Below, piece by piece: positions 4,628-8,790 of a DNA stretch of 64,000 nt (position 1 is its first letter; each line of letters opens with the position of its first letter). Location of the stretch: the IMG/VR virus record IMGVR_UViG_3300031994_000057, positions 22,941 to 86,940 of that record, one strand, 5' to 3'. The translations under genes and the position numbers were made by a program. Under the pieces are notes generated by a model that saw only the letters and a list, made by a program, of their open reading frames with translations, searched no databases and was not told the origin of the DNA. Source of the stretch: a virus (Duplodnaviria; Caudoviricetes).

Positions 4628-4759
4628 TCAATCCTCCTCACATTCATCTTCATCCTCAGGACTTCCTGAGCATTCATACTTATTGGGACAAATGCTACAA
4701 TCACATTCATCTGTGTATCTGCCTGTAGCATAGCAGATATCCATAGCTGTCATATCCAT
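4628..4759 (-). CDS. 43-aa Cys-rich acidic peptide (possible metal binder)
   Basis: GGAGG RBS; MDMTAMDICYATGRYTDECDCSICPNKYECSGSPEDEDECEED. Confidence 0.6.
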   Translation of the reverse strand: MDMTAMDICYATGRYTDECDCSICPNKYECSGSPEDEDECEED

Positions 4760-4773
4760 ATTAAATAACCTCC

Positions 4774-5058
4774 TTAATGTAACATAAACATAGCGGTTTG
4801 TAATTCCTCAATAAACTCTACAGCTTCAGAATCATTAGATACTTTCTTCTTTAAGTTCTTAAGCATCTTTTCATCTTTTTTCATTTCGACGACTTCATTA
4901 AACGCGAATCTTAGATTAGATAAATAAATTCTTTGAGTGTTTGTTGTCTCAAAATCATCTTCTAAGAATCTTTCTAAGTCAATATGAGCATCTTTACAAA
5001 CCAGTGTAAGAAACATCTTTAAGTCTTTACTCATTGGTGGCGTTTTTGATTTTCCCAT
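4774..5058 (-). CDS. hypothetical early protein
   Basis: AAAGGAG RBS; early-type promoter at ~5107-5135. Confidence 0.7.
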   Translation of the reverse strand: MGKSKTPPMSKDLKMFLTLVCKDAHIDLERFLEDDFETTNTQRIYLSNLRFAFNEVVEMKKDEKMLKNLKKKVSNDSEAVEFIEELQTAMFMLH

Positions 5059-5143
5059 ATTATTAATCTCCTTTCATAATGGAATATTGTTTGTTTATAC
5101 ACCTATATTATATATAATTGAAATTTTGAACTTTTATTAATAT

Positions 5144-5470
5144 TACAACTATATAATAGAAGCATAGAAGATAGAAATTAGATTAATACCTTCAAAACTT
5201 ATTATTCAATAGAATAAAAGTCATTAAAAGATATTACTATCAGGCACGATAGTCTCGTTAATCTTTTCTTTAAGATATAACGATAAATAAGATGTGATGA
5301 TATAAATGGTTTGGCATTTAATATCATTGTCTTTCATATATCTATGGTAATATATCACTGATATATTATGAAGAATATAATATAGACAATCTATCATTAT
5401 TTAATCTCCTTTCTTAATATTTCTTCTATGCTTCTTATCTATATTATATATTATTGAAATTATATACTTT
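5144..5470 (-). other. inverted-repeat-bracketed small-gene cassette C1
   Basis: Early promoter ~5443-5470 (minus); IR 5422-5435 pairs with 5158-5171; convergent late-type promoter TACA-N6-TA at 5144-5155 (plus). Confidence 0.75.
5224..5397 (-). CDS. cassette C1 small protein (57 aa) MIDCLYYILHNISVIYYHRY...YLSLYLKEKINETIVPDSNIF
   Basis: AAAGGAG RBS; clear paralog of the C2 protein. Confidence 0.75.
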   Translation of the reverse strand: MIDCLYYILHNISVIYYHRYMKDNDIKCQTIYIITSYLSLYLKEKINETIVPDSNIF

Positions 5471-5483
5471 TACCATTATACAA

Positions 5484-5800
5484 TACAACTATATAATAGA
5501 AGCATAAGAGATTAAAGAGTAGAGAATAACCAATAAACTTCGCTTGCTAATTATATATCTACACTGTAACCATTAATTACAGTCCATTAATCTTTTCTTT
5601 AAGATATAATGACAGATAATATAATACAATATAAATTACATAGAATTTAATATTGTTTTTCTTCTTATATTCATTTAAATATATCAGAGATATATTATTG
5701 CTGAGAATATAAAGATAATCAGTCATTGAAATAACTCCTTTCATTTTATTTCTCTTATGCTTCTTATCTATATTATATATTATTGAAATTCCTTACTTTT
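5484..5800 (-). other. inverted-repeat-bracketed small-gene cassette C2
   Basis: Early promoter ~5772-5800 (minus); IR 5751-5764 pairs with 5498-5511; late-type promoter at 5484-5495 (plus). Confidence 0.75.
5577..5726 (-). CDS. cassette C2 small protein (49 aa) MTDYLYILSNNISLIYLNEY...YLSLYLKEKINGL
   Basis: AAAGGAG RBS; shares YLSLYLKEKIN with C1. Confidence 0.75.
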   Translation of the reverse strand: MTDYLYILSNNISLIYLNEYKKKNNIKFYVIYIVLYYLSLYLKEKINGL

Positions 5801-5841
5801 ATATTTTGACATATTAATAAAAATATATAGAAAGTGAGGGA

Positions 5842-6105
5842 ATGATTATGAAAGATGCTTTTCTATTTTTATTCAAATATTTTTGGTTATTCTCCTCATG
5901 TGTTCTAATACTCATAGGAGATATATTATTTATTTTAAGAAGTCTTCAAGATTTCCATGATACCATGAAGATATATAAACAGAATAAGGATAAGGAATAC
6001 TTAAAACAACATCTAGTTGCACCAAAGATTTGTATTGGATGTAATATATTTTTGGCATTAGGTATAAGTAGTTTCTTATACTATGCTAGCATACATATGA
6101 TCTGA
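5842..6105 (+). CDS. small membrane protein (two hydrophobic segments)
   Basis: ORF track; late-type promoter 5808-5819; shares a bidirectional terminator (6115-6141) with the terminase gene. Confidence 0.6.
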   Translation: MIMKDAFLFLFKYFWLFSSCVLILIGDILFILRSLQDFHDTMKIYKQNKDKEYLKQHLVAPKICIGCNIFLALGISSFLYYASIHMI

Positions 6106-6148
6106 TAAAATAATGGACTAGGGATATTATATCCCTAGTCCTTATCTT

Positions 6149-6936
6149 TTATAAATCCATAAAGTCATTAAATAGATTACCATGTAATTCTTGCATTCTC
6201 TGCATCTCTATATCATCTTCATCTCCAAATATTTCATTAGGAAGTAATATCATAGTCCTCATACCATTCTCATTATCTGGTTCATGATATGCATTATGAA
6301 TAGCTTTTCTAAATGTAGGATCAGTACCCATCATATATCTGACTTGATCGTCTTCTCTATCTCTGATTTCTTTCTCATAATCTTGATAGAGAATACCAGT
6401 TTTATTCCTATCATTTAGATACTGCATTTGAGATTGTATATCGTCATCATCTATATATTCATATACATCTACATTGACAGTTTCACCTTTGGAATCTCTT
6501 TCAATATCACCATCTACTATCTCTTCATCTTCATCTGTTTTGATAGTATTCTTCATGATATTCCAGTTTTCCATGACGTTCTTACCGTCATACCAGACAT
6601 ACATAGCCATGAGATATGAAAATACTTGGTCATCATGAGTATTATCAGAGTGCTCTACTTTACCGTTACGCTTCACTTGCATGCCGAGCATCTCTTCATA
6701 AAGAATAGGAGCAATAAATTTATCCTTATGATAATTTACTCTATCATATAATAACTCTATTAATCTAGCACGAACTTCTTTATTAGAATTCAATCCATAT
6801 ACTTTAACAAGAGCATTACGTTTACCAACCATATGACCAGTGATTACTTCTTCTATAACCTTTTCTTTAATTTCAAAGTATAGATTCTTCTTTACATTAG
6901 TCTTAACAAGTCTTTGGACAACACTTCTTCCAAAAC
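6149..6936 (-). CDS. terL: terminase large subunit, exon 2 (rest of the RNase H-like nuclease domain, HDD motif)
   Basis: FGRSVVQRL...HDDQVFSYLMA continues the nuclease domain broken off in exon 1; the track's N-terminal 29 aa lie inside the intron. Confidence 0.8.
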
Positions 6937-7364
6937 CGTATAGTTTCATTATAGTCGCAACTCTATAATGTATGGTCAATTCCATATCACTCCCATTACA
7001 GGACGTGACCAGATCATGTGTCATTCCTATTATGCATTTAATAGGACCGGTATTTTTCTTCCTCCATAAGCTTGAGGTTCTACTCCCTCGTCAAGGGATG
7101 ATCGTTGAACGTATATCTCTATGAGATATTTCGCTGCTATACCTGGGCTTGTTAATGATAACTTAGGATTTAACCTTATTATCGTCTTAATAACTTTTTT
7201 CTACTTTCGTAACTATCACGCTTATCATTACTGATTACGTTGTAGCATATTAAGCTCTAACCCATTATCATAGCAATTAACACCGTTGAAACTTACAGGT
7301 TACCCTATAAGCTGAGACATATAGAAATATATCAACTACCATTACACTGGTAGAAATCATTCCT
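6937..7364 (-). ncRNA. group I intron (IA-like, no ORF, ~428 nt) in terL
   Basis: P3 CGGTGTT(7285-79)/AATACCG(7054-48); P4 TTGCTAT/ATAGCAG; P7 GATCA(7103-7099)/TGATC(7016-12) in GTTCAACGATCA and ACATGATCTG contexts; P8 TCCTATT/AATAGGA; terminal G at 6937; exact 5' splice site inferred. Confidence 0.8.
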
Positions 7365-8790
7365 AATCTGCTCCATTGAGCTCGATATTTACTACCGAGG
7401 TTGGCATATATTGATTCACTAGTACATATATTAAGTCTGCAAGATCATCTTGTGGTATAAAATTACAATGGAATGTGGCACAAACACGAGTTGTTCGTGA
7501 ATCTACTACTGTAATTGCAGATGAATCTCGCATAGCAGCACCAGATACATCGACTCCAATAATAGGAGGGTATGTGAGGTCAATATCTTCATATACATCA
7601 AATAAGTATTGACCAACTCTACCAAACTTAAGAGTTCTAATAGGCTCTCTACAATGTGCTTTGATAATTTCAAGGTCTTCCATATTAAATGCTGCATTTT
7701 CTGTAATGGTCTCCCACTCAAGTAATACTTCTCGTCGTATCTTAGGCCAATCGTTTGCCATCTGTGTACATATTTCTGAGAACCACTCTTCTGATAATCC
7801 CAATTGTTTATATGAGAATTTGATATAGAAGAACATTGATTGTGTATTGGCTTTTCTTAATTCCTCTAATTGCTCATATGAGTAGTCGAGATATGATTCA
7901 TCCCATCTACTAGACTTATTAATCAACTCTTGTGCATACTGTCCTTCCTTAGTGACAGGATCACCAGGAGTTGATGCTATGAATACTCCATAAGGAGCAT
8001 TATAGCTCTTTGCTATAGAAGCAGCTTTAGAATATGCAGGAATAGCTGCAGCATATACTGTTTTATTATAAGGCATAAATGCAAACTCATCATAGAACTG
8101 TAATGGCATAGTACAACCTCTTCCCAGTTTATCTGCAGCATCTTCTGATCTAGCAGAAGGGAATGTAACTATAGTGTTATGATTTAGTGGATGCTCCATT
8201 TTCTCTACAGTATTAGGTACTTTTAATTTCTGACCATTTGCATTTGTTACAGCTTCCATTCTAAGATAATTAGGTAATGTATCTCTAATCTCTTTTAATA
8301 CTTTAAGATTTTCCTTAGAACCAGAATGTGCTTTATGGATAAACATCATCTGTGAGTTGGTTGTTCCGAAGTTATATAACCATAAGTAACGAATTCTGGC
8401 TGTGGTTGTTTTACCAGACTGTCGAGGAAGTTCTACATACATACTATAATTTAGTATGAATAAAAAGTTCATCGCTAAGCCTGCTCTATCTAACTTATAT
8501 CTAGCGCCTCCTGAAGCAGAACTACCCGTTTGTGGTACTCTAACAACTTCTCTTAAGAAATACCAATAATTAACTCGTATTTCATTTAATACCATTGCTT
8601 TTTGCATTACAGAAAGATTTGGATCTCTCGGGTCTACTCCTGCTAATGCAGGATTATATAAAGCTAAAAAGAAGTCATTATTTCTAACACCAATACGTTT
8701 TAGATAATAATGCATATCCATGAACGATTGGTTGGTAGTTTCACGCTGTATGTATATTTTAATAGGGGCTACTACTTGTTCTTGAACCAT
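7365..8790 (-). CDS. terL: terminase large subunit, exon 1 (ATPase plus start of nuclease)
   Basis: Walker A PRQSGKTT, Walker B QFYDEFAF, nuclease IIGVDVSG; late-type promoter AACA-N6-TA at 8827-8816. Confidence 0.9.

What the first reader, a model, noticed from the sequence alone, without database searches (positions are those of the whole stretch)
5144..5800. Tandem cassettes C1/C2: small gene enclosed by covarying terminal inverted repeats
Each ~320-bp unit has an early promoter, a 5' arm, an RBS, a 49-57-aa Tyr/Ile-rich ORF and a 3' arm. C1 arms AGAAGCATAGAAGA/TCTTCTATGCTTCT and C2 arms AGAAGCATAAGAGA/TCTCTTATGCTTCT differ in the same way at both ends (compensatory change), which points to selection for 5'-3' pairing. 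In C1 the pairing can extend over GAAAGGAGAUUAA and occlude the RBS, as in type I toxin mRNAs. Same architecture as the four units at 26.1-27.6 kb.
Basis: partly seen in the sequence, partly recalled or inferred. Interest (0 to 1): 0.82.

Follow-up and report, generated by a model that had tools for sequence, protein, structure and literature searches.

The report
End-clamped early phage mini-genes
Two tiny early genes of an uncultured giant phage from ruminant guts each make a message whose first 14 bases pair with its last 14, and each is faced by a late promoter pointing backwards; selection keeps this design, but its likely role in message stability and timed shut-off is untested.

Summary
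Window 5144-5800 carries two tandem 329-bp units on the MINUS strand. Each has an AR9-type early promoter, a 14-nt leader starting 1 nt after the predicted +1, an SD, a 57- or 49-aa ORF, a diverged 3' UTR and a perfect 14-nt complement of the leader. C1 and C2 differ at two arm positions, and both changes are compensated. Six more cassettes in the contig and two in another viral contig (L090) share the design with other arm sequences; AR9 gene g237 has a similar end pairing. Cognate arm duplexes average -21.7 kcal/mol, against -6.8 between families. The ORFs are real (dN/dS 0.15-0.31). The peptides are soluble-looking helical hairpins, not membrane toxins. RBS occlusion by the 3' side is real in C1 but absent in C2, so it is not the conserved feature. 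Best reading: a terminal helix protects the ends of an early mRNA, and a late antisense RNA shuts it off. This function is inferred only. This scan already reported the sister cassettes of the same genome (26.1-27.6 kb).

The parts
5771..5788 (-). C2 early promoter core (TTTCAATAATATATAATA), with an AAAAGT element a few bases upstream; predicted +1 = A at 5765
   Evidence: Fourteen copies of this motif occur in the contig. It fits the AR9 early consensus AAATATATATTAT-N6-G(+1). The same motif is common in IMG/VR jumbo-phage contigs. The +1 is inferred by analogy, not mapped.
5751..5764 (-). C2 5' arm (RNA AGAAGCAUAAGAGA), starting at +2
5577..5726 (-). C2 ORF, 49 aa from the ATG 8 nt after AGGAG (55 aa from the upstream ATG at 5744), stop codon included
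   Evidence: dN/dS against C1 is 0.26
5498..5511 (-). C2 3' arm (RNA UCUCUUAUGCUUCU)
5487..5498 (+). Late-type promoter facing C2: AACT-N6-TA, predicted +1 = A5498, the first base of the arm copy
   Evidence: AR9 late consensus AACA-N6-TA/G; the motif is depleted genome-wide but sits before TerL and other late-looking genes
5442..5459 (-). C1 early promoter core; predicted +1 = A at 5436
5422..5435 (-). C1 5' arm (RNA AGAAGCAUAGAAGA)
5401..5414 (-). C1 SD region AGAAAGGAGAUUAA, which can pair with 5173-5186
   Evidence: MFE structure; 12/14 complementarity, reached by 19/20000 random 14-mers; an energy test against shuffles was not significant (p about 0.16)
5224..5397 (-). C1 ORF, 57 aa, stop codon included; predicted two-helix hairpin
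   Evidence: pLDDT 86.7; no Pfam or PHROG family; the only hit among 5.8 billion proteins is itself
5258..5280 (-). 23 nt identical in C1 and C2 (C2 copy at 5587-5609), encoding ..YLKEKIN and forming a predicted hairpin
   Evidence: no synonymous change here although pS is 0.59 overall
5158..5171 (-). C1 3' arm (RNA UCUUCUAUGCUUCU)
5147..5158 (+). Late-type promoter facing C1: AACT-N6-TA, predicted +1 = A5158, the first base of the arm copy
5106..5123 (-). Third early promoter of the same type, without arms, driving the 94-aa ORF 4774-5058 and the small-gene operon behind it
   Evidence: best complement score 7, at chance level

Best explanation
C1 and C2 are two old paralogues of a family of at least eight stand-alone early mini-genes in an uncultured jumbo phage. 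The phage is related to Bacillus phage AR9 and occurs in sheep, cattle and goat gut metagenomes.

How each unit is read:
- It is transcribed on the minus strand from an AR9-type early promoter, by inference by the injected virion RNA polymerase.
- The mRNA begins 0-1 nt before a 14-nt purine-rich leader.
- About 250 nt downstream, past the ORF and a diverged 3' UTR, lies the exact complement of that leader. The message therefore closes into a panhandle whose helix starts at the very 5' end.

Most likely function (inferred): the terminal helix hides both ends of the message from the host decay machinery, namely 5'-end-dependent RppH/RNase J1/RNase Y and the 3' exonucleases. This would make a long-lived, insulated early mRNA.

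Most likely shut-off (inferred): directly outside each 3' arm, on the other strand, sits a late-type promoter (AACT-N6-TA) whose predicted +1 is the first base of the arm. Late in infection a non-coding antisense RNA would cover the whole message. It would end expression through duplex formation and RNase III cleavage, or through convergent-transcription interference.

Shown: the anatomy, the complementarity, the covariation, the coding constraint and the motif placement.

Inferred: the transcription start sites, the timing, and the consequences for stability and shut-off.
For: Arm pairing:
- The arms are perfect in both units, with two compensated differences between units. The helix is in the MFE at probability about 1.
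- Ten cassettes in two phages (eight here, two in L090) fall into five unrelated arm families. Cognate duplexes average -21.7 kcal/mol and different-family duplexes -6.8. C1 against C2 gives -15 to -16, against -22 for the cognate pairs.
- In all ten the helix starts at the predicted +1 or +2.
- Six other promoters of the same type in the contig, and about 95 in IMG/VR relatives, lack any such complement. It is therefore a cassette feature, not a promoter feature.

Conservation:
- The arms, together with the adjoining promoter motifs, are conserved islands beside a 3' UTR that is almost unalignable.
- The ORFs are under purifying selection and synonymous sites are near saturation.
- Variant strains in bovine runs carry about 10 substitutions plus indels in C1 and several in C2, but none in any arm. 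This is weak evidence because the contigs are of low depth.

Transcript ends:
- A1, A2, D1, D4, E1 and E2 have an intrinsic terminator just after the 3' arm, so the arm lies inside the mRNA.

Late promoter:
- AACW-N6-TA lies on the antisense strand with its +1 0-4 nt outside the arm in 8 of 8 cassettes.
- The motif is under-represented genome-wide (237 observed, 366 expected) yet precedes TerL and other genes.
- It matches the mapped AR9 late consensus, and AR9 makes late antisense RNAs.
- The contig encodes a homologue of the AR9 virion RNAP beta' subunit (E 2e-55).

Precedents:
- In B. subtilis a 14-bp 5'/3'-UTR interaction modulates RNase Y cleavage of the small hbs mRNA (PMC5737220).
- AR9 early gene g237 shows the same design: +2..+14 pairs with 13 nt just before its terminator.
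Against: - No RNA data exist for these cassettes. The one metatranscriptome run that holds part of the stretch covers only 4700-5004 as a contig.
- The start sites are inferred from the AR9 consensus, and C1/C2 would start at A rather than the consensus G.
- C1 and C2 have no intrinsic terminator after the 3' arm. Their transcripts may run on into the next unit, and the arm would then be internal rather than terminal.
- Both strands fold about equally well (sense -77.6, antisense -72.3 kcal/mol). Pairing cannot be assigned to the sense RNA by G-U asymmetry.
- In the A/D families the DNA inverted repeat runs about 4 nt upstream of the predicted sense +1.
- The host and its RNases are unknown.
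- The AR9 g237 clamp has no late promoter facing it, so the clamp and the antisense promoter may be separable features.
Confidence: 0.45

Rival explanations
1. Translational gate, as in type I toxin mRNAs. The full-length message would be folded shut by the 5'-3' interaction and not translated until 3' trimming or the antisense RNA opens it.
For: - In C1 the helix continues over the SD.
- In D4, A1 and E1 the SD region pairs with the 3' UTR better than with shuffles.
- In AR9 g237 the arm itself contains GGAGG.
- A cis-antisense promoter is present.
- The AapA1 and hok mRNAs work this way (PMC5416894).
Against: - C2, the sister unit, has no such extension (8/14).
- The partners of the SD differ between cassettes and are often not in the 3' region. 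Removing the last 60 nt hardly changes predicted SD accessibility in most.
- The peptides lack a membrane-spanning stretch and look like soluble helical hairpins.
- The antisense is predicted to be late-only, not a constitutive antitoxin.
Confidence: 0.15
2. RNase III processing stems. The arms would pair within read-through polycistronic early transcripts (C2-C1-ORF94) and be cut by host RNase III. This would excise each mini-message, as the stems flanking 16S/23S rRNA or the T7 and SP82 early mRNA sites do.
For: - C1 and C2 lack terminators, so read-through is likely.
- The C1 helix with its extension spans about 26 bp.
- RNase III cutting of phage early RNAs is established knowledge (T7, SP82; from memory, not checked here).
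Against: - The helix starts at the predicted +1/+2 in 10 of 10 cassettes. A processing stem has no need for that.
- Six cassettes are already monocistronic, with their own terminators.
- The 14-bp C2 helix is short for RNase III.
Confidence: 0.15
3. Relic or by-product. The 3' arm would be the remnant of an inverted duplication of the leader that created the late promoter. Alternatively the repeat is kept uniform by DNA-level template switching or gene conversion, and the RNA pairing has no function.
For: - In C1 and A1 the similarity between the leader and the inverted 3' region extends, degraded, through the SD. This looks like an old inverted copy.
- Both strands fold equally well.
Against: - Synonymous sites are near saturation between paralogues and the 3' UTRs are unalignable. 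A neutral relic would have decayed, yet the arms are perfect or nearly so in ten cassettes with five different sequences.
- Conversion between arms 250 bp apart is not an established process at this length.
Confidence: 0.1
4. DNA element. The arms would be terminal inverted repeats of a small mobile cassette, or the recombination sites of an invertible segment that swaps the gene between an early and a late promoter.
For: - The cassettes are dispersed at three loci and always occur in tandem pairs.
- Opposed promoters flank the repeats.
Against: - The arm sequences differ between families, so no single transposase or invertase could recognise them.
- 14 bp is short for such sites.
- No joints or strand switches appear in the contigs of four runs (weak evidence).
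- The promoters are part of the 329-bp repeat unit, outside the arms.
- No recombinase was noticed beside the cassettes. This was not searched exhaustively.
Confidence: 0.06

Closest known systems
B. subtilis hbs mRNA 5'/3'-UTR interaction (Braun, Durand & Condon 2017, PMC5737220)
   Same: [quoted passage not shown] The helix length and overall geometry are the same.
   Different: In hbs the pairing is internal to a structured leader and is a single host gene. Here the helix starts at the first or second nucleotide, recurs in a phage paralogue family with covarying arms, and is coupled to an opposing late promoter.
S. aureus icaR mRNA 5'-3' UTR pairing (PMC3868564)
   Same: The 3' UTR pairs with the 5' UTR of the same mRNA. 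By that paper's abstract and title it controls translation. The C1 extension over the SD resembles it.
   Different: In icaR the anti-SD pairing is the whole point. Here SD coverage is found in C1 but not in C2, and the conserved helix lies upstream of the SD.
Type I toxin mRNAs with long-distance 5'-3' locking (hok/Sok; AapA1/IsoA1, PMC5416894)
   Same: A small ORF; 5' and 3' ends of the full-length message pair with covariation; a cis-encoded antisense RNA; RNase III as the likely executioner.
   Different: The peptides are not hydrophobic membrane peptides. SD sequestration is not conserved. The antisense promoter is a phage late promoter at the far 3' end that gives a full-length antisense, not a short constitutive antitoxin. 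There is no evidence of toxicity.
AR9 (PBS1-like) two-polymerase transcription scheme with late antisense RNAs (Lavysh et al. 2017, PMC5312081)
   Same: The early promoter fits AAATATATATTAT-N6-G. The late motif fits AACA-N6-TA/G. AR9 has mapped late promoters that drive antisense transcription. AR9 g237 has a comparable 5'-3' clamp.
   Different: The AR9 paper describes neither end-pairing nor a systematic placement of late promoters at the 3' ends of early genes. Its most abundant antisense RNAs are over the late structural genes g125 and g126.

Membership tests
AR9-type early (virion RNAP) promoter | Extended AT-rich consensus AAATATATATTAT, then 6 nt, then +1 G | tested here: met
   C1/C2 read AATAATATATAAT-ATAGAT-A. 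The core matches with one A/T change, but the +1 would be A, not G. The D/A cassettes give N6-G exactly.
AR9-type early (virion RNAP) promoter | Transcription early in infection, independent of protein synthesis | not testable with these tools
   No RNA data cover the cassettes.
AR9-type late (non-virion RNAP) promoter | AACA-N6-TA/G with the last base as +1 | tested here: met
   AACT-N6-TA at 5147-5158 and 5487-5498 (+). Present in 8 of 8 cassettes. The motif is depleted genome-wide and precedes TerL. The fourth base is T in C1/C2; A/T both occur before other genes of this contig.
Type I toxin-antitoxin system | Small hydrophobic, membrane-active toxin peptide | tested here: not met
   Maximum 19-residue hydropathy 0.56 (C1) and 1.14 (C2); longest stretch without a charged residue is 15 residues; predicted two-helix hairpin.
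Type I toxin-antitoxin system | Cis- or trans-encoded antisense RNA antitoxin that overlaps the toxin mRNA | tested here: inconclusive
   A convergent promoter motif is present, but it is late-type. Its RNA is unobserved.
Type I toxin-antitoxin system | Full-length mRNA translationally inert through SD sequestration | tested here: inconclusive
   Predicted for C1, not for C2.
Type I toxin-antitoxin system | Toxicity of the peptide on expression | not testable with these tools
   -
mRNAs with functional 5'/3'-UTR long-range pairing (hbs, icaR type) | Complementary 5' and 3' UTR segments within one transcript, maintained in evolution | tested here: met
   14/14 pairs in both units, 2 compensated; five arm families; cognate specificity. 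That both arms lie in one transcript is shown by terminator position for six sister cassettes and inferred for C1/C2.
mRNAs with functional 5'/3'-UTR long-range pairing (hbs, icaR type) | Pairing changes stability or translation | not testable with these tools
   -
MITE-like or inverton DNA element | Terminal inverted repeats of conserved sequence recognised by a recombinase; both orientations or empty sites in populations | tested here: not met
   The arm sequences differ between families. No joints or strand switches appear in the contigs of four runs (weak, contigs only).

The most novel reading that the evidence does not exclude
The cassettes are a built-in timer for early messages. The terminal helix makes the early mRNA nearly immune to end-dependent decay. 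The late polymerase then fires an antisense RNA whose first 14 nt are identical to the mRNA leader, so it competes for the 3' arm, opens the clamp and hands the duplex to RNase III. This would be a phage-encoded, sequence-programmable switch from stabilisation to destruction, one per gene, with each cassette carrying its own private address.
Probability: 0.2. Interest if true: 0.8.

Novelty: new variant of a known kind. Interest (0 to 1): 0.6.

Why it matters
- Jumbo phages with their own RNA polymerases escape host transcriptional control. How they time and end early gene expression is poorly known.
- A family of genes whose messages are closed end to end, each faced by a late promoter aligned to the nucleotide with the helix, would be a compact post-transcriptional module for temporal control. 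It would also be a natural design for very stable, self-insulated mRNAs in Firmicute-type hosts.
- The covarying arms give a ready set of natural compensatory mutants.
- The comparable clamp on AR9 gene g237 makes the idea testable in a cultured phage-host pair (AR9 and B. subtilis) for which RNA-seq data already exist (GSE87573).

Tried and rejected
- Megablast of 5000-6200 against 50,697 phage records: no match.
- C1 protein against 5.8 billion proteins: only itself, on 3 contigs, the longest 259 kb.
- ESM Atlas: no usable hit.
- Pfam and PHROGs: nothing significant for any cassette peptide.
- Rfam: nothing at gathering scores in the whole window.
- Viral-contig scan for promoter plus C-type arm: none.
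- Gapped pattern of early promoter plus late motif 275-305 nt downstream: 20 hits, all without arms.
- The single metagenome scan gave one chance hit in an unrelated 442-kb contig.
- TerL-anchored relatives (52-53% identity) show no cassettes near TerL.
- RNA run X6 holds no contig over C1/C2, so nothing can be said on expression. The X6 contig over 4700-5004 may even be DNA carry-over.
- AR9 g237 relatives are 98-100% identical, so they have no power to show covariation.
- Pfam RNAP domains are not detected on the contig. A blastp of six-frame ORFs against AR9 did find the virion RNAP beta' homologue.
- Clamp as an intrinsic terminator: the sequence after the 3' arm is AU-rich but has no U-tract, and six cassettes have ordinary terminators. 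I judged this unlikely.
- Late promoters serving only to express a downstream gene: this is possible at this locus (87-aa gene 5842-6105). It is not possible at the A and D loci, where no co-oriented gene follows.
- A 12-bp A/T-only inverted repeat flanking the whole C1-C2 pair (5132-5148 and 5806-5822) is at chance level for this composition.

Full report
**Context.** The window is part of an 86.9-kb viral contig, estimated 35% complete. Its large terminase is 39% identical to that of the Bacillus jumbo phages BpSp and Goe21, and it also resembles those of Staphylococcus S6-like and phiKZ-like phages. Six-frame ORFs match AR9 proteins, including DNA polymerase, TerL and the virion RNA polymerase beta' subunit g145 (31% identity over 415 aa, E 2e-55). 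Near-identical DNA is present in sheep gut metagenomes, and diverged copies occur in cattle and goat runs. This is therefore an uncultured AR9-like jumbo phage of ruminant guts. The two-polymerase transcription scheme worked out for AR9 is the natural frame for reading it.

**The observation.** Window 5144-5800 holds two tandem units 329 bp apart. The genes are on the minus strand. In that orientation each unit reads as follows:
- AAAAGT, a short gap, then TTTCAATAATATATAATA.
- Six bases, then a predicted +1 A.
- The 14-nt arm, then about 12 nt, then AGGAG and 8 nt to ATG.
- An ORF of 57 aa (C1, 5397-5224) or 49 aa (C2, 5726-5577).
- A hairpin over the stop-codon region and 60-90 nt of diverged 3' UTR.
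- The exact complement of the arm.

The arm coordinates in + numbering are 5158-5171/5422-5435 for C1 and 5498-5511/5751-5764 for C2. All 14 pairs are standard in both units. Positions 10 and 11 differ between the units, and both are compensated (A-U and G-C exchanged). Sliding the partner strand by 1-3 columns leaves only 36-61% of cells paired. With two sequences the shuffle control has no power, so the weight rests on the wider family described below. A complement of this quality was never reached in 100 shuffles of the downstream sequence. RNAfold closes both predicted transcripts with this helix at pair probability about 1. C1 folds at -77.6 kcal/mol (z -8.3) and C2 at -64.1 kcal/mol (z -5.3).

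**The wider family.** The same promoter motif occurs 14 times in the contig. Eight of these copies are followed by a leader whose complement lies 254-296 nt downstream. They are C1 and C2, four units at 26.1-27.6 kb, and two units 12-13 kb before the window start. The other six promoters have nothing above chance. A further pair of tandem cassettes lies in an unrelated 11-kb IMG/VR contig, L090, with 20- to 25-bp arms of quite different sequence that sit immediately before an intrinsic terminator. Among about 95 other promoters of this type in IMG/VR jumbo contigs, almost none has arms. The ten cassettes fall into five arm families.
- Cognate 5'/3' duplexes average -21.7 kcal/mol.
- Pairs from different families average -6.8 kcal/mol.
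- C1 leader with C2 tail, or the reverse, gives -15 to -16 kcal/mol, against -22 for the cognate pairs.
- In every cassette the helix begins at the predicted +1 or +2.

**Are the ORFs genes, and how old are the copies?** Pairwise dN/dS is 0.15-0.31, with synonymous differences of 0.59-0.72 per site. The ORFs are therefore under purifying selection and the duplicates are old. The eight peptides of this contig align as one loose family. They match no Pfam or PHROG family and have no relatives in the large protein sets. AlphaFold, run on the paralogue alignment, gives C1 as a two-helix hairpin with pLDDT 86.7. None has a hydrophobic stretch of transmembrane grade. Against this background of saturation, the C1/C2 alignment shows three zones:
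- Near-identity from the promoter through the 5' arm.
- A 3' UTR that is close to random.
- A 29-nt island covering the 3' arm and the late-type promoter motif beyond it, identical except for the two compensated positions.

Strain variants assembled from bovine runs carry about ten substitutions plus indels in C1 and several in C2. One is an in-frame 3-nt insertion in the C1 ORF. No arm is changed. This is only weak support because the contigs are of low depth.

The AR9 late (non-virion polymerase) promoters have the mapped consensus AACA-N6-TA/G, with the last base as the start. On the plus strand, AACT-ATATAA-TA lies at 5147-5158 and again at 5487-5498. The predicted +1 is therefore A5158 and A5498, exactly the first base of each arm copy. 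All eight cassettes of the contig carry AACW-N6-TA on the antisense strand with the start 0-4 nt outside the arm. This confirms earlier notes of this scan on the sister cassettes. The motif is under-represented in the contig (237 observed, 366 expected), as expected for a signal that must not occur at random. It also sits in front of TerL and other presumably late genes. In L090 the equivalent position reads GACA-N6-TA, and the gene-proximal motifs of that contig are [C/T]ACA-N6-TA. The plus strand of 5144-5800 has no ORF of 30 aa or more, so the predicted late RNA is non-coding antisense. At this locus it would run on into the plus-strand 87-aa two-TM gene (5842-6105), which ends at a bidirectional terminator at 6115-6141. 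At the other two loci no co-oriented gene follows, so driving a downstream gene cannot be the general reason for these promoters.

**RBS occlusion.** In C1 the helix can continue, after a bulge, over AGAAAGGAGAUUAA. The 14 nt adjoining the 3' arm are 12/14 complementary to it, a level reached by 19 of 20000 random genomic 14-mers. An energy test against shuffled UTRs was not significant (p about 0.16). In C2 nothing comparable exists (8/14; p 0.36-0.48). Across the ten cassettes the SD is often predicted to be paired, but with different partners. Removing the last 60 nt changes its predicted accessibility little in most of them. The invariant feature is thus the terminal helix, not SD sequestration.

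**Mechanism.** The best-supported reading is an end clamp. A helix that begins at the first or second nucleotide and uses the far 3' region hides both ends of a short message.
- Firmicute mRNA decay depends strongly on an accessible 5' end (RppH, RNase J1, RNase Y). I state this from general knowledge of the field.
- A 14-bp 5'/3'-UTR interaction is known to modulate RNase Y attack on the small B. subtilis hbs mRNA (PMC5737220).
- Six sister cassettes place an intrinsic terminator just after the 3' arm, so the arm is inside the message.
- A very stable early message needs an off-switch. A late promoter aligned with the outer edge of the helix would provide one, either through a full-length antisense RNA and RNase III or through collision of converging polymerases. 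AR9 does produce late antisense RNAs.

I put this reading at about 0.45. The rivals and my estimates are:
- Translational gating as in hok or AapA1 mRNAs (0.15). C1 and AR9 g237 fit it; C2 and the peptide properties do not.
- RNase III excision of units from read-through transcripts (0.15). This is plausible because C1/C2 lack terminators, but it does not explain why the helix starts at +1.
- A non-functional relic or a DNA-level homogenised repeat (0.1).
- A mobile or invertible DNA element (0.06). The family-specific arm sequences and the absence of joints in contigs argue against it.

Both strands fold about equally well. I could not show from G-U asymmetry that the sense RNA is the selected one. 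The antisense RNA would form the mirror-image clamp.

**A cultured example.** I scanned all AR9 early-type promoters for a complement of the first 25 nt within 600 nt. Gene g237 stands out at -22.3 kcal/mol, against a median of -9.9. Its annotated early promoter gives +1 G followed by AUGGAGGUUUAAG. The complement CUUAAACCUCCAU lies after the stop codon and a hairpin, directly before the intrinsic terminator. No late motif faces it. This is a single case with an estimated family-wise chance of a few per cent, and its relatives are too similar to show covariation. It nevertheless offers a direct experimental handle.

**Comparison and novelty.** The parts are known kinds: AR9-type early and late promoters, 5'/3'-UTR pairing as in hbs and icaR, and cis-antisense control and fold-back locking as in type I toxin mRNAs. 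Membership in the type I toxin-antitoxin class fails on the peptide criterion. What I did not find described in the AR9 paper, or in the text passages I searched of the 201phi2-1 transcriptome paper, is the combination of three things:
- a paralogous family of stand-alone early mini-genes;
- each message closed by a helix that starts at +1, with arms that covary between copies;
- each cassette faced by a late promoter registered to the nucleotide with that helix.

I class it as a new variant of a known kind. This scan had already reported the sister cassettes of the same genome, with the same conclusion. I re-derived the key points independently for C1/C2.

**Limits.** Start sites, timing, transcript ends and every functional statement are inferred. 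No transcript data cover the cassettes. The host is unknown.

Noticed in passing
window 5842-6105 (+), terminator 6115-6141: An 87-aa protein with two strongly hydrophobic segments (maximum hydropathy 2.41) lies downstream of, and co-oriented with, the two predicted late promoters at 5147-5158 and 5487-5498. It ends at a perfect bidirectional terminator. It could be a late membrane protein, holin-like, expressed from the 'antisense' transcripts.
   Followed up: partly
window 6149-7024 (-) and 7363-8790 (-): The large terminase is split into two ORFs separated by about 340 nt without an ORF. Both halves match AR9 TerL, which is itself joined from five pieces.
   Followed up: partly
AR9 KU878088 204050-204530 (L111:2651-3130): Early gene g237 of cultured phage AR9 has a 13-bp pairing between +2..+14 (which includes its SD GGAGG) and a segment just before its terminator. 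It has no facing late motif.
   Followed up: partly
L094:2302-2470 (+) (IMGVR_UViG_3300026549_000029): An early-type promoter drives a GC-rich segment of about 140 nt with no evident ORF. A 13-bp 5'-3' stem closes it and a U-run follows. It looks like a small structured phage RNA. There is no Rfam match at E up to 1.
   Followed up: partly
L070 (minus strand), about 580-760 in that orientation: An early-type promoter is followed by a 12-nt leader whose complement lies 134 nt downstream, around a 12-codon ORF. It is possibly a miniature version of the same clamp; the score is borderline.
   Followed up: no
whole contig: The cassettes always occur as tandem pairs of the same arm family: A1-A2, C2-C1, D2-D3 nested between D1 and D4, and E1-E2 in L090. 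This could mean that the two peptides act together, or it could only reflect duplication history.
   Followed up: no
window 5258-5280 and 5587-5609: A 23-nt stretch inside the ORFs is identical in C1 and C2 although synonymous sites differ at 0.59 elsewhere. It forms a predicted hairpin and encodes the shared ..YLKEKIN end. It may be an RNA element within the coding sequence.
   Followed up: no
whole contig: The late-type motif AAC[AT]-N6-T[AG] is markedly under-represented (237 observed against 366 +/- 18 expected). This is consistent with avoidance of spurious late promoters.
   Followed up: partly
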